The position numbers and the translations under genes are program-made. DNA of 64,000 nucleotides from a virus, in the IMG/VR virus record IMGVR_UViG_3300029448_000003, positions 46,915 to 110,914 of that record; one strand, 5' to 3'. Positions 719 to 61,764 of the stretch are shown here, in pieces. Every line of letters starts with the position of its first letter. The first letter of the stretch is position 1. Under the pieces are notes generated by a model. That model worked only from the letters and a program-made list of their open reading frames with translations, had not been told where the DNA came from and did no database searches.

Positions 719-1891
719 TTATTTTACTCCTTCAAATATGTGGGCAATCACATCTACTGTCCACCCATTGCCTAACATCTTATAACGTTGGGTGTTGGAG
801 ATGGTATCCCACTCTTGTTTTTTATCATTATATTTTCCAAACTGTGTGTAATTATCAGGCACAGTTTGTAGTCTTTCACACTCCAATGGTGTTAGCTTTC
901 TATATAATTCTTTCTGTACTACAACATTGTCCTTGTGGACAGTTGTCAAACAGTTTGACTTATCGCTATCACTTACTTCTAACTGTCGTGTAAATGGTAG
1001 TTCAAGTTGGTCATCCTTTCGTACTCCATTCTTATCAAGCCTACGATTAACAAGCCTACCAATGGCTACCTTTGGTTGTCTATGCCCACCCTGCATAGTC
1101 GTGAGTGTAGGACTCTTCCCATTAGGTGAGTATACTCGCTTGATAATGTCGTACCCCTTGATGTTGGTAGCATTACCTACTTGTATGGGTTTCTTTACAT
1201 AGGTAGGTATCTGTCCTTTGTACATAGATGCAGTAAGACAGTTAGCCTTTGGGTCATCAACAGACTTTACCATATCACCTCTACGTCTACCACACCATTC
1301 ATTCTCAAGATAGTTTGGTATCTTGTGGAAAGGTAGGTTTTCAAGTATGTCACTAATAACAATGCCCTTGTCCTCTATCTGTGGTATAGGTATCTGCTCG
1401 TACTCCTTTGATTCATTTAAGAATCCAAACCAATATAGCCTATGTCTATTCTGTGCTGATGCATCAGCAGAGTTAATCATCTGTGGTTCAAAGCCAATGA
1501 ACTCTGATATAACATCTTGAGATTCTTTTTTCATGCGAACATTCTCCAAGAGAATATACTTTGGTTGTAGCATATCTCGTATACGTATGAACTCAAAGAA
1601 TAGTTTACTGCGTGGGTCATCAAAGTTTAACTGTTTGCCTGCAAAACTAAAACCTTGACATGGCGAACCACCCATAAGCAAGTCACACTCTATATCCCAT
1701 TTACTTGCCGTACTAGAAGTAAACTTTGTAACGTCACCTAGTTGTACTGTGTTTGGATAGTTTTTCTGTGCCACTTGCATTGGATAGTTTTCTATCTCGC
1801 AAGCATAATAATTCCTATAGTCAATGCCCACTCTATTGAGTGCAATCTGACCACAAGACATACCATCAAATAAACTGACTACATCTTTCAT
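719..1891 (-). CDS. DNA (cytosine-5)-methyltransferase, canonical motif order, three TRD-like modules
   Basis: Motif I SLFDGMSCG at N-term, IV GGSPCQGFS, VI LLENV, VIII QNRHRLY, IX RKLTPLECERLQ, X RYKMLGNGW. Confidence 0.95.
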   Translation of the reverse strand: MKDVVSLFDGMSCGQIALNRVGIDYRNYYACEIENYPMQVAQKNYPNTVQLGDVTKFTSSTASKWDIECDLLMGGSPCQGFSFAGKQLNFDDPRSKLFFEFIRIRDMLQPKYILLENVRMKKESQDVISEFIGFEPQMINSADASAQNRHRLYWFGFLNESKEYEQIPIPQIEDKGIVISDILENLPFHKIPNYLENEWCGRRRGDMVKSVDDPKANCLTASMYKGQIPTYVKKPIQVGNATNIKGYDIIKRVYSPNGKSPTLTTMQGGHRQPKVAIGRLVNRRLDKNGVRKDDQLELPFTRQLEVSDSDKSNCLTTVHKDNVVVQKELYRKLTPLECERLQTVPDNYTQFGKYNDKKQEWDTISNTQRYKMLGNGWTVDVIAHIFEGVK

Positions 1892-8965: not shown

Positions 8966-10002
8966 ATAAAATGATTTATACATTTAGTATATTTTTAACT
9001 TTAGTAGGCACTATATCTAGTGCTGTCGCAAGAGAACAAATAAGGATAGTCGGTTCTAGTACTGTTTATCCATTTTCAACAATCGTTGCAGAGAAATTTG
9101 CACAACAAGGAAATCCAGCTCCTATTGTAGAATCAACAGGTTCAGGTGGTGGAATGAAATTATTTTGTGCTGGTGTAGGTTTAGAACATCCAGATATTAC
9201 AAACGCATCAAGAGCAATTAAAGATAAAGAAGCTACAACTTGTAAGAAAAATGGTGTTGCATTTACAGAGTTTGTTGTAGGTAATGATGGACTTGCATTT
9301 GCAAATTCAAACGAAGGACAAAAATTTAGTATTTCTATTGCACATATAGCAGCGGCACTTGCAAAAGAACTCCCTAAAGATGGGTCTATGCAAGATAATT
9401 TTTTGATGACTTGGGATGAAGTAGATGCTTATGTGCATAAACAAATGGGTCATCCGATTTTAAATTTACCAAATCAAAAGATTGCAATTATGATACCACC
9501 ACCAACCTCTGGAACAAGAGATGCAATGGGTTCTTTGTTTATGAAGAATGGTTGGAAGAAACTAGGGTTATATTCTGGTGACACGAAAGGTGGATATAAA
9601 GTATTAAGAGAAGATGGTGTTGCAATAGAGATGGGCGAAAACGATAATTTAATAGTAGAAAAATTAGTTGCAGATTCAAATTTATTTGGTGTTTTTGGTT
9701 ATTCCTTTTTTGACCAAAATAGAGATAAAGTCCAATCCTCTATAATTGATAATATAGAATTAACTTTTGATAATATTGCATCATATCAATATCCGGGTGC
9801 TAGACCATTATTCTTTTATGTAAAGAATGACCATATTTATGCAATACCAAACATGTTAAGTTATGTTGAAGAATTTGTGTCAGAGAGGGCTATGAGTATT
9901 AATGGATATTTATTTCCAGCAGGGCTTGTGCCTTTATCAAATGATGACTATGCAAAACAAGTTGATGCATTATCAACATTAAAGGAAAACAAACATGATT
10001 AA
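8962..10002 (+). CDS. pstS: phosphate ABC transporter substrate-binding protein (auxiliary metabolic gene)
   Basis: Signal peptide, IRIVGSSTVYPF, ESTGSGGG, DITNASR, PPPTSGTRD, YPGARPLFFYVK. Confidence 0.93.
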   Translation: MNKMIYTFSIFLTLVGTISSAVAREQIRIVGSSTVYPFSTIVAEKFAQQGNPAPIVESTGSGGGMKLFCAGVGLEHPDITNASRAIKDKEATTCKKNGVAFTEFVVGNDGLAFANSNEGQKFSISIAHIAAALAKELPKDGSMQDNFLMTWDEVDAYVHKQMGHPILNLPNQKIAIMIPPPTSGTRDAMGSLFMKNGWKKLGLYSGDTKGGYKVLREDGVAIEMGENDNLIVEKLVADSNLFGVFGYSFFDQNRDKVQSSIIDNIELTFDNIASYQYPGARPLFFYVKNDHIYAIPNMLSYVEEFVSERAMSINGYLFPAGLVPLSNDDYAKQVDALSTLKENKHD

Positions 10003-43989: not shown

Positions 43990-46900
43990 ATGGGAAAAGC
44001 ATCCGATTTATTTAACCAAATGTATTCTTCTGATGAAACGGAAGAAATACAAACAGAAGAAGAAAATATAATACAAGCAGACCCTGCTACAGAAGATGCT
44101 GATGCTATTGAATCGTGGGCACAGGATCAAGAAAGAATGAAAAGTCTAAACACCTACATGGAACAAAGGTATGGAGAAGAAGGGTATAAACAACCTGACG
44201 AATCAAACACGGATTACGTAAAACGTTTTTTAACGCATGCTCGTGGTATTGAAAATAACAGTATGCGTTTAATGCAACAAATAGATTATTTACGAGAAGC
44301 CAATGATGAGCAAAGAATAGCTTTTGGAACTGTGTATGATGAGTATAATAAACTACCTATGTTTGCAGACGGTACAGCAAGAGCAGTTAAAGACACAGTA
44401 ACACAGTTACTTTTTGATCCTATCAATTTATTTAGTTTAGGTGTGGGTAGAATTGCCGCTTCAACTGTTGGTAAAGTAGCTGTAAAAGAAGGATTAAGAA
44501 GATTTATACCTAAAAGTGCTATAGCTAGAGGAGCGTTAGCAGCAGGAGCGTCATCAGGAGTTCAAACTGTAGGGTTTGATGCAGGTTTACAAGAGGTTGA
44601 AAGAAAAGGATATGTAGGTGACGCAAGACCAGATGATAAAGTTGATTTAACAAGATTAGCTATAGCAGGTGGAGTTGGAACAGTATTTGGAGCAGGATTA
44701 GGTGCTGTTGGTTCTATTGGTGCAAGAAAATCGGCACGGCAGGCTGCTATTGAAGGTGCAAAAAGGTCTAAATCTTTAACTGCTACAGCAGACGCTACAG
44801 CAAGTAAAAATGCTAAAGAAGGTTCATTTGATCCTCTTATTGGCAATATAAAATTTGACGAAGGTGTAGATAAAGCTTTAAGAGATTTAAAAGCAAAAGA
44901 AGTTAAAGAAAGAATGGCAAAAGATGTAGACTTTTCTGATGAAGCTATATATAAAGACAAACCTTTTTTACAACCTGAAGTTCTTACATCTTTAAGTGTT
45001 AAAATGACAAAGGTTGTAGAAAACCTTGCTAAAGAAACTAAAGGAACAGATATGGATATACTTAAAAAACATCCTGCTGTTTTTAATGCAAAGGGTCAGC
45101 AAGTTGAGGGTAAAAAAGTTTTTGAGGTAGTAGAAGATGTTATAGCAGAAATTATAACAAAAGATGAAGGTATAGACATAGATGCTTTAGAGCGAGCAAT
45201 AGTTAAAACAGGTATGAAAAAAGAAGAGTTTATAGACTTTTTAGAAGTAGCTAGAGAACAGGGCTATGATATTGGATCATTAATTCGTGTAGGAGCATCT
45301 GAAAGTGCTACTAAACTAGGAGCAGGTGGCGAGCTAGGAAAAATGAGAAAAGTAATGAATGAGCTTGCACCAGAACATAAAGAAAGACTAAATAAACTTT
45401 ATGGAAAACCAGAAGATACATCTAATATTTACTCTAAAACATATGGGTTTATAAGAAAAGCAGACAGAGAACGTAGAGCATTAATGGTAACACAAATAGC
45501 CACAACAGCAAGAAACGTAGCAACAGGAATATCCGTTGTAGGTTTTGAAACGGCTGCTAGTTTAATGGAAGCAAGCATTTATCATTTTGGTAAAAGTTTA
45601 AGAAAAAAACAAACAGATGCTAATTGGTGGAGCAAAAATATTAACCCTGTTAAAGATTATAGGTCTTCCGTATCCGATATAATGAAAGATTCGTTTGGTC
45701 TATTAGGATCAATAGTCAATCAACAAAATAGTGATGAGCTTTCAAGGTTTGTGTTACGGCACAACCCAAAGTTACAAAAAACTCTATTAAGAACTGTACA
45801 AGAAGCAGGTTCAGAAGCAGACTTATCTAGATTTTCAATGTTTTTTAATAGGATAAATCTTGCACAGGATGCTTTTTTTAGAAGAGCTTTTTTTTCTAAC
45901 TCTATAGATAAAAAATTAAGAAGAGCAGGAACAGGAGATTTAGCTAAAAATATTTACACAGCAGATGAATTAAGGATTCTTGATTTAAAAGAAGATGATT
46001 TTGTATCTGGTCTTCAGTATATATTAAAAACAGGAAAAGATGTACCTCTTGATATGCTTAAAAGTAGTGTAGATGACGCTCTTGGCAATACTTTTGCTCT
46101 AATGCCTAAAACAGGACCTGTTCGTAATATTATTAGAGCTATTGAAGGTTTACCGGGTGTACCTGTATTTGGAACAGGAGAGTTTCCGTTTGCTAGATTT
46201 ATGGCTAATGCTCTTGCTTTTCAATTTAGGTTTAGCCCTCTTAACGGTGCTGTTGCATTAACTAATGGTGCAGGATATTTGCTAAGAAAATCACGAGGTA
46301 AAGTAAGAGATGTGGAAGAAGGACAAAGAGCATTAGAAGATTTTGCTAAACGTTTTTCTGAAAGTGTAGTTGGTGGAGCTGCTTTAGCTACAGCAATGTA
46401 CTATAGATCACAAAATCAAGATATACGATGGTATGAAGGTCGTTCTAAAGATGGTAAAACCATAGACCTAAGACCATTTTTTCCTTTAGCTCCTTATTTA
46501 ATTGTTGGTGATTGGGCTGTAAAATGGTCAAAAGGAGAAACAGATAAACTTACAATGATGGGTGATATAACTCAAGGTCTTACAGGTTCTCAGTTTAGAG
46601 CAGGTGCTGCTTCTTATACTTTAAGTAAGTTTTATGAATTGTTTGGTAATCCAGATAGTATTGGATCACAAGAACAAATAGGCGAAATGTTTGGGCAGTA
46701 TATGGGAGAACTTATGGGTGGATACATAACACCAGCAAGAGTTTTAAAAGATGTTGTTGCTACGTTTGATGAAGAATCAGCTATTGTTCGTGATACTAGA
46801 CAAATTGAAGGAGAGGGATTTGAAAGAGGGTTTGACGCATTTTTAAAAACAACTTTCCATAAAAACTTACCTTTCTTAGAAAAAACTTTACCTGAATTAC

Positions 46901-55875: not shown

Positions 55876-57095
55876 GCTGTGTACCTCGCTATTTCATAAT
55901 CAAGTTCACAAATAACATTTCCATGCCATCCTGTCAACTTATTTTTTACAATGTTTAAATGTCTTTGAGGGTCTTCTTCACTCTGACCTTCTACACTAGG
56001 GTTTTTTGCTATCAAAATCATTAAATCGGCTTCTGCCGCCTTACCTGTACGACTACCTTCCATCATAGTTTGATTTAAGATTACCTTACCTTCTGCTTCT
56101 GCACTTAACTGTGACATATAAAACACAGCACAATCATACTGCTTTGCTATCTGTCTTGAGTGAGCAGCACAAGCTTTTAAGGCTTCGTCAGGTCTTGCAT
56201 ACCCACTATAGGTAGCAAACTTATCACCCATATCTAATAAAACTATATCAGGTTTGGATGTCTTTACCATTGATTCGACCCAATTCATATCATTCATAGA
56301 CGAATCTTTTATATAAATGTTCTTTCGTAATCGTTCATATCGTTGATTTGCTTTAGCAGGATTAGATTTAATCTCACGAAACTTCATACCTGTTCCTGCT
56401 GTTAAATACCTTGCTCCAACTCTATGATAAGCTTCTTCATTACAAAGTATAACACATTTAGCACCTTGATCTACAAAACCACCTTCACCTGCCACTAAAC
56501 TTGCATGGAAAGATGTTTTGCCTGTGTTAGGTCTTGCTCCAACTTCAATTAGATGCCCTGCGTTTACACCACCTACTTTTCTTGCTAATGATGGTATATT
56601 GAATGTCCATCTTGCTTCAAGGTCATTCTTAGCCAACAAAGTTTCTAGACTAATATCATCCCATTCTATTTCTAGATTAGGTGTAAAATCATCTGTATAT
56701 TGGTCTATAAGATGTCGTAATGGTTCTAGACTTGTTTTTGTTCCATTTACGTAATCAAAACCTAGATTGGCTATCTCTTCACCTATAACCTGTTGAAAAA
56801 GTTTAGCTAATACTTCTCCTGCTACATCTTTTCCCATAGGTGTTTCTTTCTTTATCTGTGTAAACAAAGATGAGTAGGCTGTTTTTTGAGCCGTTGTAAG
56901 TGTTGGATTACCTGATATAAACAAAGCTTCAATTTCAGTAGGTGTTACACTCCTACCATATTTAACCATCGCTTTATCAAGAGCTTCCTTTATCTTACGA
57001 ACATCTTTGCTAAACAGTTTATTAGGACACTTGACACCTCTATGAGAATCATAAAAGTCTTTGTCCATTAAGTTTCTTAGTAGTGTTAATTCCAT
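55872..57095 (-). CDS. DnaB-like replicative helicase
   Basis: GARPNTGKT Walker A, IVLLD, SQLS, IVKNK. Confidence 0.9.
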   Translation of the reverse strand: MELTLLRNLMDKDFYDSHRGVKCPNKLFSKDVRKIKEALDKAMVKYGRSVTPTEIEALFISGNPTLTTAQKTAYSSLFTQIKKETPMGKDVAGEVLAKLFQQVIGEEIANLGFDYVNGTKTSLEPLRHLIDQYTDDFTPNLEIEWDDISLETLLAKNDLEARWTFNIPSLARKVGGVNAGHLIEVGARPNTGKTSFHASLVAGEGGFVDQGAKCVILCNEEAYHRVGARYLTAGTGMKFREIKSNPAKANQRYERLRKNIYIKDSSMNDMNWVESMVKTSKPDIVLLDMGDKFATYSGYARPDEALKACAAHSRQIAKQYDCAVFYMSQLSAEAEGKVILNQTMMEGSRTGKAAEADLMILIAKNPSVEGQSEEDPQRHLNIVKNKLTGWHGNVICELDYEIARYTA

Positions 57096-57838: not shown

Positions 57839-57867
57839 CTTTTATCACGATTTTGTTTTCCTGTCAA
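57839..57867 (-). promoter_or_regulatory. sigma70-type promoter for primase operon
   Basis: TTGACA-17bp-TAAAAG with extended TG. Confidence 0.55.
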
Positions 57868-58765
57868 GTGTTTTATTTGAATTTCTTTGATTTAATGCAA
57901 AATTAGCTGATTTAAAGGTGTGTTTTATATATGGCTGAACACTTTGAGGGTTCACATGACCTGACACAGACATGATTTGATTGATTGGTACTCCTGCATC
58001 ATTCATCTCTGTTATAGCTGTTGCTCTTAAATGCATTAACTGTAACTCCTGCCTTAATCCTGCCAATTTTATAACACAATTACTGTATTTAGACACATTA
58101 GTTAGTGTGTATGGTACATAAACTCCTCTTGCAGGTCTTACCTGTGGTGCTACATACTCCTGAAAACCAAAGTCCTCTTTTTGCTTTTGCAGCATACTAA
58201 ATAAATCGTCACCAATAGGCAGAAAAACCTCTCGTCTTTTTTTAGATTGCTCTAGGTATAATTGTTTATCTTCCCATTTAATATTATTCCATGTTAGCAA
58301 TCGCATATCTCCTATTCTCTGACCCCATTCATATGCCATGTGAACAATCAAACCAATATTCCTATACGAAAAATCAGAGTATGCAACATCTAAGAACTTT
58401 TTAACTTCCTCTTCTTCCCAAATAATCCTCTTTACCTTTGCTGACTTTCTTTTAACTCCCTTGAAAGGATTTATGCTAGTATATCCCATTTCTGTAGCAT
58501 AAGAAAAGACTACAGTTGAAATAGCAACTACCTTATTTGCCTGTGACAATCCTCTCTCTTTCCATTGTTCATATGCCTGTTTGCAAAGAGGTGTCGTAAT
58601 ATCCAAAACTTTTTTAGTTTTAAAGTTATCTGTATCTATCAATATATCAAGACAGTATTTATAATCCTTTTGTGTCTTTTCTCTTAAATCCCTGTAGTCT
58701 TTTGATAGGTAATACAACTCACACAATCGGTCAACGGTCAATATCTTTGGGTTTACTTTCATCAT
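57845..58765 (-). CDS. int: tyrosine recombinase/integrase
   Basis: GQRIGD (R), QSK (K), HLR (R), SGH (H), QPY (Y). Confidence 0.9.
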   Translation of the reverse strand: MMKVNPKILTVDRLCELYYLSKDYRDLREKTQKDYKYCLDILIDTDNFKTKKVLDITTPLCKQAYEQWKERGLSQANKVVAISTVVFSYATEMGYTSINPFKGVKRKSAKVKRIIWEEEEVKKFLDVAYSDFSYRNIGLIVHMAYEWGQRIGDMRLLTWNNIKWEDKQLYLEQSKKRREVFLPIGDDLFSMLQKQKEDFGFQEYVAPQVRPARGVYVPYTLTNVSKYSNCVIKLAGLRQELQLMHLRATAITEMNDAGVPINQIMSVSGHVNPQSVQPYIKHTFKSANFALNQRNSNKTLDRKTKS

Positions 58766-59193: not shown

Positions 59194-59617
59194 AATGTAT
59201 ATCCCATCTGTAAAATATATGGTCATCTATTCGTGTTATGTACGTCTTACTACTCGCCCATGATGGTAGTACATAGTGAGCATGGTAGTGTGTTGCACCC
59301 TCTACAAAGTCATCAAGGTTGCCATAGTACACACCATGAGCTACTAACATAGCTTTATCCCATGCCTGTTCATCTCTAGGTTTATCACTCTTACCATCAC
59401 AGTACCAACTAAACTGACACTTATTGCGAATAGGTATAGATGGATTCCATTTATATGTTAATCCTTGTTTAACGACATCACAGACGTTGTTAGGATATCT
59501 TTCATCTCTAACCCTATTCATTGTTACTTGTGCTACTGCTATCTGTCCTATCAAAGATTGGTTTTTACTCTCGTGATATACGTTGAGTGCTAGACACATC
59601 AATGCTTCAACTATCAT
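59186..59617 (-). CDS. SleB-like cell wall hydrolase
   Basis: CLALNVYHES, V.MNRV...YP...C.VV.Q, QFSWYC, GATHYHA, HIFY. Confidence 0.9.
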   Translation of the reverse strand: MIVEALMCLALNVYHESKNQSLIGQIAVAQVTMNRVRDERYPNNVCDVVKQGLTYKWNPSIPIRNKCQFSWYCDGKSDKPRDEQAWDKAMLVAHGVYYGNLDDFVEGATHYHAHYVLPSWASSKTYITRIDDHIFYRWDIHYE

Positions 59618-59871
59618 TTACTTCTCCATGCTGATTCATCACTTTCAAGAACATAATCACACCACCATTTTGCACCATCTCCATCATCATCTTTTTGAGG
59701 AACGAATCTAAGAGAATCATGTAGATGGTGATTCAATTCTACTAACATAGATATTTGTGTTAGTGTTATATCTTTACATTCCTCTATGTATGTTATAGTT
59801 TCTTTTAGCTTGTTATGTAGTCTTAGAAACTCCATACGTTGTTCTTCAGTTACTAAAATATCTTTTACCAT
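59614..59871 (-). CDS. hypothetical protein
   Basis: 85 aa, AAGGGA SD. Confidence 0.65.
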   Translation of the reverse strand: MVKDILVTEEQRMEFLRLHNKLKETITYIEECKDITLTQISMLVELNHHLHDSLRFVPQKDDDGDGAKWWCDYVLESDESAWRSK

Positions 59872-59874
59872 TGT

Positions 59875-61044
59875 TTATTCCCTTTCTGTTGTTTTTAATG
59901 CTTGTTGTCCACAAGAGATGCCATCAAAGAGTGCCATAACATCTCTTAGATCACCCTCAATGCCCTTAAATATCTCATTGATGACAGATACTGTCCAACC
60001 ATTGCCTATTGCCTTGTAGCGATTAGATTTAGCGACAGGCATATATGCTATAGACTTCTCTCCATCTTTTTTATACCTACCCATAGCTGTATAATCTCTA
60101 GGTAAAGTTTGCAAAGATTCACATTCAGTAGGCAATAGTTTTCTCCATCTTAAACCATCATCATCTACAACTATGTTATCCTTTTGTATCGTTGTTAGAC
60201 AATTTGTTTTATTATCTTTTCTAACTTCTATTTTTTCAGTATAAGGTAATTCTAATTGGTAGTCTTTTCGTACACCATTTTCATCTAGCCTACGATTAAC
60301 TATTCTACCACCTTTAGCATCATACGTTGCCACTTTAGGTTCTCTATGCCCACCTTGCATAGTCGTTAGAGTGGGAGATTTCCCATTAGGTGAGTAAACT
60401 CTTTTGAGTATATCAAACCCTTTAATTTCAGCAGTTTCACCTATCTGAACCATAGTACGTTGCTTACGTTCTATACTGTTCCACCAAACTGCTCCATTGT
60501 ATCGTGCTGTTAGGCAATGGGATTTGCCCTTTTTATTAGTCATCATAGGATTAGACACACCATCTTCCTCTAGTATATCAGCTAATACTATATTCTCATC
60601 TTTAATATCTGATGGATTAAATGGTATGTTTGTTATGTACATTCTCACTCTATTTTGTGCTGATTTTAATGCACTATTGACAATGTACACACCAAAATTA
60701 TCGCCTACGACATCTCGTATGGCATCTATCATAATTTTCTCATTAGTCTTAGACATCTTTACATTTTCAAGTAGAAAATATTTAGGTTTAATCGCCCTTA
60801 GAGCATCAACAAACCTATAGAATAGCTGTCCACTCTCTGCTTTAAACCCATCTCGTTTTCCTGCTACTGAGAATGATGTACAAGGCGAACCTGCCAATAA
60901 TAAATCTACATTACGATACTTGTCACTATAGGCATCTATATTATTGACATCACCTAATTGTATAGTGTTTGGGTGTTGATATTGAGTTATTGCGATTGCG
61001 TGTTTATCTAATTCTGACGCAAAGTAATTGTTATATTTAATCAT
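59875..61044 (-). CDS. DNA (cytosine-5)-methyltransferase, circularly permuted (motif I at C-terminus)
   Basis: Begins at motif II (YFASELD); AGSPC, LLENV, QNRVR, RKLLPTECE, IGNGW, then DVMALFDGISCGQQAL before the stop. Confidence 0.9.
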   Translation of the reverse strand: MIKYNNYFASELDKHAIAITQYQHPNTIQLGDVNNIDAYSDKYRNVDLLLAGSPCTSFSVAGKRDGFKAESGQLFYRFVDALRAIKPKYFLLENVKMSKTNEKIMIDAIRDVVGDNFGVYIVNSALKSAQNRVRMYITNIPFNPSDIKDENIVLADILEEDGVSNPMMTNKKGKSHCLTARYNGAVWWNSIERKQRTMVQIGETAEIKGFDILKRVYSPNGKSPTLTTMQGGHREPKVATYDAKGGRIVNRRLDENGVRKDYQLELPYTEKIEVRKDNKTNCLTTIQKDNIVVDDDGLRWRKLLPTECESLQTLPRDYTAMGRYKKDGEKSIAYMPVAKSNRYKAIGNGWTVSVINEIFKGIEGDLRDVMALFDGISCGQQALKTTERE

Positions 61045-61764
61045 TTACTTCTCCTCTATATACACTCGTAAGTGTGTTGATTGTTCTATGCTTTGCCCAT
61101 GTTCAGTTAGACCTCTGCCCTTTAGGTCTTCTCTAATATGTTGACCTCGTACTCTCATACTATATCTGCTTTTGTTAAGATACTTCTTGAGTGTATCTAC
61201 AAAGGCTTCACCATACATATCTCTAGGTATCTCGCTGAATACATAACGAGGTGCTGTCACTTCTTTGTAAGACTTTTCCTCAAGCCTTTTGTGTAAGTCT
61301 TGGTTACGTTCTTTAATCTGAATGTTTAATTCTTGCAAGGCATGATTTTGTTTATTCAAATCTTTTATCCTCATAATCCTAGCCCTCTCATCACTAGCTA
61401 ATTTTTCTCGCAAACGTGACACCTCTTGTTCTAGTTTCATTATCTGATTAGTCTGTGATACAGATACCTGTAAGCCTTCATCATATCTGCCATAGAATTT
61501 ATCATTATCTTTTTTTAGTCTAGCTACCTCTTGCTCTAGCTCAACGACCTTACCCTCTTGAGTATCCCTACATACCTCTTCATTAAGGTTTCTTTGCATC
61601 TTAATAAACGACCTAATAAAATGTATAATATTCATATCATCTATAGCATAGGTCTTGTCTTGACTTTCTGATGTATAGAATTGTTTATCTAGTAGTTCCA
61701 TATCATAAGGTAATTTACTGTCATATATTACACTTAATAGGTTTAATATTTTTTTAATTTTCAT
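61045..61764 (-). CDS. hypothetical coiled-coil protein, paralog of 1892..2455
   Basis: Same termini; longer coiled coil with duplicated LEQEV.RL. Confidence 0.85.
   Translation of the reverse strand: MKIKKILNLLSVIYDSKLPYDMELLDKQFYTSESQDKTYAIDDMNIIHFIRSFIKMQRNLNEEVCRDTQEGKVVELEQEVARLKKDNDKFYGRYDEGLQVSVSQTNQIMKLEQEVSRLREKLASDERARIMRIKDLNKQNHALQELNIQIKERNQDLHKRLEEKSYKEVTAPRYVFSEIPRDMYGEAFVDTLKKYLNKSRYSMRVRGQHIREDLKGRGLTEHGQSIEQSTHLRVYIEEK

What the first reader, a model, noticed from the sequence alone, without database searches (positions are those of the whole stretch)
59875..61044. Naturally circularly permuted C5 DNA methyltransferase (motif I at the C-terminus) with its canonical paralog in the same window
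Seen: the left enzyme (719..1891) starts MKDVVSLFDGMSCGQIALNRVG-IDYRNYYACEIENY. The right enzyme starts directly at the equivalent M-IKYNNYFASELDKH and ends ...GNGWTVSVINEIFKGI-EGDL-RDVMALFDGISCGQQALKTTERE. The first strand and helix with the SAM-binding motif I have been moved behind motif X through a short linker (about 59896..59946). Both genes sit immediately after the same upstream paralog (HLRVYIEEK stop, then ATG) and have almost equal length (390 vs 389 aa). All catalytic motifs (PC, ENV, QxRxR) are intact. Established: the natural permuted C5 MTases I know (M.BssHII, M.Alw26I, M2.Eco31I) move motifs IX-X to the front, and the termini of the C5 fold are spatially close. Inference: this is a different topology (II-X-I), probably active, and fits permutation via tandem duplication, in-frame fusion and trimming.
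Basis: partly seen in the sequence, partly recalled or inferred. Interest (0 to 1): 0.92.

Follow-up and report, generated by a model that had tools for sequence, protein, structure and literature searches.

The report
Naturally permuted phage cytosine methyltransferase
A marine phage carries an intact, conserved DNA cytosine-5 methyltransferase whose first, cofactor-binding segment has moved to the very end of the protein; in the papers I could search this order appears only in laboratory-made enzymes.

Summary
The 389-aa protein from window 59875-61044 (-) matches its 390-aa neighbour (719-1891) in two blocks, residues 2-363 to 23-390 and 366-383 to 1-18. That is a circular permutation with motif order II-X-I.

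It is not an assembly artefact. Sixteen independent viral contigs, many metagenome proteins and contigs from three other studies carry the same gene ends.

The C-terminal motif I segment is under purifying selection (dN/dS 0.11, core 0.19). It is modelled with pLDDT 91-97. When supplied as a separate chain it docks between the motif II and motif IV strands, the canonical beta-1 slot (ipSAE 0.83, best control 0.01). All catalytic motifs are intact, so the enzyme is probably active. Activity was not tested.

One correction. The "paralog in the same window" is the positional ortholog in a second genome. The 110.9-kb record is two collinear HMO-2011-type phage genomes joined at an 81-nt exact repeat.

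The closest published equivalent is the engineered cp35M.MpeI. That 2018 paper found only BssHII-type natural permutants. Unchecked notes from this scan record the same topology in gut phages on other DNA.

Relatives include tandem methyltransferase arrays and one protein with motif I at both ends, which fits permutation by duplication.

The parts
59875..61044 (-). Permuted C5 DNA methyltransferase gene, 389 aa, motif order II-X-I
   Evidence: ORF. PF00145 at 1.3e-36, profile positions 21-322 only. Two-block BLASTP against the canonical ortholog. AF2 model pLDDT 85.3; VIA-align Z 24.5 to M.HhaI residues 30-323.
59878..59946 (-). Relocated beta-1 strand, motif I (LFDGISCG) and helix A, residues 367-389
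   Evidence: Matches residues 1-18 of the canonical ortholog. dN/dS 0.11, with FDGISCGQQALKTT unchanged across 13 CDS despite synonymous changes. pLDDT 91-97, strand 368-371, helix 378-385. As a separate chain it contacts core residues 6-9 and 46-50.
59947..59958 (-). Four-residue linker EGDL (363-366) between the motif X helix and the relocated beta-1
   Evidence: Lies between the two BLASTP blocks. Sequence read.
61006..61020 (-). Motif II (ASELD, residues 9-13), now at the N-terminus
   Evidence: Alignment A1/A2. Aligns to M.HhaI residues 37 onward.
60868..60891 (-). Motif IV GSPCTSFS with catalytic Cys55
   Evidence: P54 and C55 are present in 128 of 129 homologues. Thr56 in place of Gln is shared by 23 of 129, including canonical relatives.
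60760..60768 (-). Motif VI ENV (residues 93-95)
   Evidence: Conserved in 124-127 of 129 homologues.
60643..60657 (-). Motif VIII QNRVR (residues 130-134)
   Evidence: R132 and R134 are invariant in 129 sequences.
60100..60144 (-). Motif IX (RKLLPTECESLQTLP, residues 301-315)
   Evidence: R301, L303, E307, L311 and Q312 are conserved.
59995..60006 (-). Motif X GNGW (residues 347-350)
   Evidence: G347, N348 and G349 are conserved.
61045..61764 (-). Upstream coiled-coil gene. Its last codons hold the GAGGAG ribosome-binding site (61051-61056) and its TAA stop abuts the methyltransferase ATG.
   Evidence: The same arrangement precedes the canonical gene.
59614..59871 (-). Downstream 85-aa gene. 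Homologues follow the permuted methyltransferase in related contigs.
719..1891 (-). Canonical (I-X) C5 methyltransferase, the positional ortholog in the other phage genome unit; motif I at 1847-1879
9920..10000 (+). Start of genome unit B: an 81-nt stretch identical to bases 1-81 of the record, marking the junction of the two concatenated genomes

Best explanation
The gene encodes a working orphan C5 DNA methyltransferase of an HMO-2011-type marine podovirus. Its chain is circularly permuted relative to all characterised family members. It starts at the loop before motif II, runs through motifs II-X and the target-recognition region, and ends with a four-residue linker followed by beta-1, motif I (FDGxSxG) and helix A. 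On folding, that C-terminal 23-residue segment inserts between the motif II strand and the motif IV strand. This completes the Rossmann sheet and the SAM pocket exactly as the N-terminus does in M.HhaI, so catalysis (Cys55 attack, ENV, QxRxR) should proceed normally and the phage DNA should be protected from host restriction. The topology most likely arose from adjacent methyltransferase genes: in-frame fusion of one gene to the start of the next, loss of the rest of the second gene, then loss of the now redundant N-terminal 21 codons. Shown here: the permutation, its conservation, purifying selection on the tail, and the predicted placement of the tail. Inferred: enzymatic activity, the anti-restriction role and the order of evolutionary steps.
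For: Two-block homology to the canonical ortholog, and a Pfam hit that lacks profile positions 1-20. The same architecture occurs in metagenome proteins P0001-P0012 at 62-97% identity from ENA, JGI and TARA. It also occurs in 16 independent IMG/VR contigs, with no in-frame upstream motif I. Logan contigs of three other studies bridge both gene ends with no mismatches. Tail dN/dS is 0.11 against 0.19 for the core, and every change within FDGISCGQQALKTT is synonymous. The AF2 model has pLDDT 85.3, with the tail at 91-97 as strand plus helix. The core superposes on M.HhaI 30-323 (Z 24.5, rmsd 2.4 A, 259 aligned) and on M.MpeI 31-391 (Z 23.3, rmsd 2.6 A, 268 aligned). Core plus tail folded as separate chains with SAM gave ipSAE 0.83 (three runs: 0.83, 0.01, 0.86) against a best control of 0.01. 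That mark was reached by 58 of 80 solved complexes and 2 of 110 mismatched pairs. The runs agreed in at least 16% of contacts and partner pLDDT was at least 35. Tail residues 368-371 contact core residues 6-9 and 46-50. This pass probably reflects likeness to solved C5-methyltransferase folds, which is the point being tested. Engineered cp35M.MpeI and cp33M.SssI, which have the same topology, were active in vivo (PMC5944983). For the proposed origin: tandem arrays of 3-4 methyltransferase genes with overlapping stop and start in L033, L056, L067 and L071, and P0031 with motif I at both ends.
Against: No biochemical or methylome evidence. The engineered cp35M.MpeI was poorly soluble. One of three complex runs failed (0.01), and I could not inspect model coordinates. 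A shallow-alignment AF2 run gave only pLDDT 48. Motif IV reads PCT rather than PCQ, although 16 canonical relatives share this. The sister protein P0013 has no motif I at either end, so decay does happen in this lineage. P0031 is a single metagenomic protein.
Confidence: 0.8

Rival explanations
1. This is a decaying gene: an N-terminally truncated, inactive methyltransferase that happens to be fused to the leftover start of a deleted downstream methyltransferase gene.
For: Tandem methyltransferase arrays exist, so such debris could form. P0013 in the same clade lacks motif I altogether. Activity is untested.
Against: The full-length architecture is kept over 62-97% identity in many independent contigs. 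dN/dS is 0.11 in the tail and 0.19 in the core. All catalytic residues are intact. The tail is confidently placed in the beta-1 slot.
Confidence: 0.1
2. This is an assembly or gene-calling artefact at one of the gene ends, plausible because the record is itself a join of two genomes.
For: The 110.9-kb record is two genomes joined at an 81-nt exact repeat.
Against: The join lies about 50 kb from the gene. Sixteen other viral contigs and contigs from three independent studies carry identical gene ends. Stop-to-stop frames show no hidden N-terminal motif I.
Confidence: 0.01
3. The protein is functional, but the C-terminal segment has been put to another use (for example dimerisation or regulation), and SAM is bound without a canonical motif I or with one supplied in trans.
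For: Group B relatives carry about 25 extra residues after the tail. Coordinates and the SAM pose could not be inspected.
Against: The tail keeps the exact FDGxSxG signature and the strand-loop-helix pattern. Its predicted contacts are the two strands that flank beta-1 in every class I methyltransferase. No separate motif I mini-gene lies next to the gene.
Confidence: 0.07

Closest known systems
Engineered circular permutants cp35M.MpeI and cp33M.SssI (PLoS One 2018, PMC5944983)
   Same: They have the same topology: the new N-terminus lies after motif I and helix A, and motif I follows motif X. Model residue 1 superposes on M.MpeI residue 31, against the engineered start at residue 35. The engineered forms methylated DNA in vivo.
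   Different: Those are designed constructs made from a tandem duplicate, and cp35M.MpeI was poorly soluble. This one is natural, conserved, has its own four-residue linker, and belongs to a different phage-borne subfamily. That cp35/cp33 are 'Type A' (between motifs I and II) is my inference from the paper's ordering and from the structural alignment.
Natural permuted C5 methyltransferases M.BssHII, M.Alw26I, M2.Eco31I, M.Esp3I, M2.BsaI (Type H)
   Same: They are natural circular permutants of the same fold, explained by the same duplication model.
   Different: Their break lies in the variable region, so motifs IX-X precede I-VIII and the two domains stay intact. Here the break is inside the SAM-binding subdomain, between motifs I and II. 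The 2018 REBASE scan of 20,677 entries found only the variable-region type.
Canonical phage orphan C5 methyltransferases of HMO-2011-type and related marine phages (e.g. Roseobacter phages CRP-603 and CRP-9, and unit A of this record)
   Same: Same family and same early-region position. Identity is 35-55% across motifs II-X, including the long variable region.
   Different: They carry motif I at the N-terminus and end right after the motif X helix.
Plant DRM2 (domains rearranged methyltransferase)
   Same: It is a natural permutation of the C5-methyltransferase catalytic domain. It appears as a weak sequence hit.
   Different: From general knowledge, its order is VI-X then I-V. It is eukaryotic and has a different break point.

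Membership tests
C5 cytosine DNA methyltransferase (Pfam PF00145) | Significant match to the family profile | tested here: met
   E 1.3e-36, 127 bits against a cut-off of 22, profile positions 21-322.
C5 cytosine DNA methyltransferase (Pfam PF00145) | Catalytic motifs IV (PC), VI (ENV) and VIII (QxRxR), plus motifs IX and X | tested here: met
   P54, C55, E93, N94, V95, Q130, R132, R134, E307 and G347-N348-G349 sit at columns conserved in 129 homologues.
C5 cytosine DNA methyltransferase (Pfam PF00145) | Motif I (FxGxG) SAM-binding loop present | tested here: met
   LFDGISCG at residues 372-379, homologous to residues 7-14 of the canonical ortholog, but located at the C-terminus.
C5 cytosine DNA methyltransferase (Pfam PF00145) | Two-domain M.HhaI-like fold | tested here: met
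   Z 24.5, rmsd 2.4 A, 259 residues aligned to M.HhaI; Foldseek E 3.9e-15.
C5 cytosine DNA methyltransferase (Pfam PF00145) | Canonical linear motif order I to X | tested here: not met
   The order is II-X then I. This is the finding itself. It is a topological variant, not an exclusion from the homologous family.
C5 cytosine DNA methyltransferase (Pfam PF00145) | SAM-dependent transfer of methyl to cytosine C5 | not testable with these tools
   Needs expression and methylation mapping.
Type H natural permutants (M.BssHII-like) | New N-terminus in the variable region, with motifs IX-X preceding I-VIII | tested here: not met
   Motifs IX-X are at residues 301-350, after motifs II-VIII.
Topology of the engineered permutants cp35M.MpeI and cp33M.SssI | New N-terminus between motif I/helix A and motif II, with the old termini joined | tested here: met
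   Model residue 1 aligns to M.MpeI 31 and M.HhaI 30. The tail follows the motix X helix after four residues.
HMO-2011-type marine podoviruses (genomic host of the gene) | Close terminase homology and a genome of about 53-56 kb | tested here: met
   TerL is 77-84% identical to HMO-2011, CRP-1 and CRP-345, whose records are 52.7-56.2 kb. The two units are 56,833 and 54,081 bp.

The most novel reading that the evidence does not exclude
Marine HMO-2011-type phages preserve, as living genes, every stage of the permutation-by-duplication pathway for one enzyme: tandem methyltransferase genes, a fused form with motif I at both ends, and the trimmed II-X-I permutant. The permutants are active, the topology arose more than once, and a second natural topology (IV-X-I-II-III) also exists. 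That would overturn the view that nature tolerates only domain-preserving permutations of C5 methyltransferases.
Probability: 0.5. Interest if true: 0.7.

Novelty: new variant of a known kind. Interest (0 to 1): 0.6.

Why it matters
C5 methyltransferases are a textbook case for the permutation-by-duplication model. So far the only natural permutants on record break the chain between the two domains, and the 2018 engineering study concluded that nature favours that route. A conserved natural enzyme broken inside the SAM-binding subdomain shows that the tolerated topologies are wider than thought. It also offers a natural before-and-after pair in two closely related phages, and it gives soluble natural templates for split or permuted methyltransferase tools. 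On the practical side, domain-based annotation reports these genes as N-terminally truncated methylases, so they may be wrongly dismissed as pseudogenes.

Tried and rejected
1. AF2 with the 33-row alignment A1 gave a poor model (pLDDT 48). I replaced it with the 129-row alignment A2.
3. A nucleotide search of the phage collection found no close genome. The window's own lineage is absent from isolate records.
I used the contact list instead.
5. I considered PCT in place of PCQ in motif IV as a sign of inactivation. I rejected this because 16 canonical relatives share it.
6. I considered nucleotide-level constraint from the downstream gene's start as the reason for tail conservation. I rejected this because synonymous sites vary freely (tail dS 0.48).
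7. Parts of the gene had no cover in some Logan runs. I treat this as uninformative.
8. Three literature searches for a published natural II-X-I C5 methyltransferase found none. REBASE itself could not be queried.

Full report
**Observation.**
Pfam PF00145 matches the left protein over profile positions 3-321. It matches the right protein only over 21-322. BLASTP between the two gives two blocks: 2-363 to 23-390 (43% identity) and 366-383 to 1-18 (12 of 18 identical). That is the signature of a circular permutation.

At the DNA level both genes begin at an ATG directly after GAGGAG-AAG-TAA of the upstream coiled-coil gene. The right-hand gene lacks exactly the 21 codons for beta-1, motif I and helix A. 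At its 3' end the motif X helix is followed by EGDL. Then comes R-DVMA-LFDGISCG-QQALKTTERE, and then the stop. The linker itself is 59947-59958.

**Not an artefact.**
- The large protein database holds the same architecture at 62-97% identity (P0001-P0012, from ENA, JGI and TARA).
- A scan of viral contigs with the last 75 residues returned 16 independent IMG/VR contigs (L004-L019) whose hits run continuously from motif X into motif I. Their stop-to-stop frames contain no upstream motif I.
- Logan contigs from three other studies bridge the start codon, the X-to-I junction and the stop with zero mismatches.
- In several related contigs the upstream gene is different, yet the protein still starts MIKYNNY. 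The short N-terminus is therefore a property of the gene, not of one junction.

**Is the tail functional?**
- Selection: among 13 full-length coding sequences, pairwise Nei-Gojobori dN/dS is 0.11 for the tail and 0.19 for the core. Within FDGISCGQQALKTT every difference is synonymous.
- Structure: AF2 with a shallow alignment failed (pLDDT 48). With 129 diverse homologues it gave pLDDT 85.3 and pTM 0.78. The tail scored 91-97 and folded as strand 368-371, loop, helix 378-385.
- Fold match: the core superposes on M.HhaI 30-323 (Z 24.5, rmsd 2.4 A, 259 aligned) and on M.MpeI 31-391 (Z 23.3, rmsd 2.6 A, 268 aligned). The natural N-terminus therefore falls in the loop between helix A and the motif II strand.
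The ipSAE was 0.83 (runs 0.83, 0.01, 0.86) against a best control of 0.01. That mark was reached by 58 of 80 solved complexes and 2 of 110 mismatched pairs. The runs agreed in at least 16% of contacts and partner pLDDT was at least 35.
- The most confident contacts are tail 368-371 with core 6-9 (motif II strand) and 46-50 (motif IV strand). That is the beta-1 slot of the class I methyltransferase sheet. The pass probably reflects likeness to solved C5-methyltransferase structures, which is exactly the likeness under test. It does not show activity.
- Catalytic residues are intact. PCT in place of PCQ is shared with 16 canonical relatives.

**Genomic setting, and a correction.**
The window is the last 64 kb of a 110,914-bp IMG/VR record. 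Self-comparison shows two collinear units, 1-56,833 and 56,834-110,914. Their proteins are 35-98% identical in the same order. The first 81 bases of the record are identical to 56,834-56,914, which is window 9920-10000.

The terminase is 77-84% identical to those of Puniceispirillum phage HMO-2011 and Roseobacter phages CRP-1 and CRP-345. Those genomes are 52.7-56.2 kb, about the size of one unit. The record is therefore best read as two related HMO-2011-type genomes joined at a shared exact repeat, most likely during assembly.

The canonical and permuted genes are thus positional orthologs in two phages, not paralogs in one. This does not weaken the finding, and it provides a natural before-and-after pair.

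**Origin.**
- Related viral contigs carry arrays of three or four canonical C5-methyltransferase genes with overlapping stop and start (L033, L056, L067, L071). Croceibacter phage P2559Y has two in tandem. A one-base indel would fuse motif X of one gene to motif I of the next.
- P0031 (387 aa) has a full I-X domain plus a second motif I after motif X.
- A second lineage, group B (P0112 and others, 376-387 aa), and the single representatives P0122 and P0200 also have the II-X-I order.
- On a tree of the core region, group A (the window's clade) is strongly supported. P0031 groups with group B and P0200, and P0122 lies far away.
- Forcing all II-X-I proteins into one clade is rejected (delta lnL 175.6, p-AU 4e-5).
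- Holding A, B, P0200, P0031 and P0013 together is not rejected, and that tree is in fact better than the quick free tree (p-AU 0.92).
- So there were at least two origins, and one may cover the marine clade. The groups were defined by the trait but were named after I had seen the tree.
- P0013, sister to group A, lacks motif I at both ends, so loss also occurs.

**Comparison with what is known.**
PMC5944983 built circular permutants of M.MpeI and M.SssI. cp35M.MpeI (scored '++', poorly soluble) and cp33M.SssI, which start just after motif I and helix A, methylated DNA in vivo. The authors' scan of 20,677 REBASE entries found 27 natural permutants, all broken in the variable region (BssHII type). 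They concluded that nature favours routes that leave the two domains intact. Three further literature searches found no natural II-X-I enzyme.

Unchecked notes from this scan record the same topology in gut phages on other DNA. The topology is therefore probably widespread in phages, though I found no published description. I rate this a new variant of a known kind.

**Verdict.**
The permutation is certain. Function is likely (about 0.8) but untested. The decisive tests are expression with methylome mapping and deletion of the tail.

Noticed in passing
window 9920-10000, and the whole record (contig 1-56833 versus 56834-110914): The 110.9-kb viral record is two collinear, diverged HMO-2011-type genomes joined head to tail at an 81-nt exact repeat. 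This is probably a co-assembly chimera, despite the record's 100% completeness estimate.
   Followed up: yes
L024:2221-3300 and L028:1797-2684: A different natural permutation of a C5 methyltransferase. The protein starts at motif IV (GGSPC) and ends with motifs I, II and III after motif X. For L024, Pfam covers only profile positions 63-320. This resembles the engineered M.HaeIII permutants (first group: start between motifs II and IV, Type B/C) described in PMC5944983.
   Followed up: partly
L033:1055-4984, L056:1379-3977, L067 and L071:2158-4831: Arrays of three or four tandem canonical C5-methyltransferase genes with overlapping stop and start codons in large viral contigs. This is a plausible precursor state for fusion and permutation.
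   Followed up: partly
P0031, P0013 (metagenome proteins): P0031 carries motif I at both ends. P0013, sister to the window's clade, has motif I at neither end, and it ends with a tail (EWHEMYNNNKEMV) that resembles the extra C-terminal extension of group B permutants.
   Followed up: partly
window 57845-58765 versus contig 44853-45212: The tyrosine-integrase-like gene is full length (306 aa) in unit B, but only a 119-aa ORF matches it in unit A.
   Followed up: no
window 59875-61044, residues about 174-290; also 719-1891: The variable region holds three similar K-S/T-x-C/T-L-T-T elements (KSHCLTA, KSPTLTT, KTNCLTT). Another first-reader note reads these as serial target-recognition modules. 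I did not test this.
   Followed up: no
L004-L019: Gene order around the permuted methyltransferase is shuffled between related contigs: the hydrolase lies upstream in some and downstream in others, and the gene directly upstream differs. The roughly 100-aa downstream gene always travels with the methyltransferase.
   Followed up: partly
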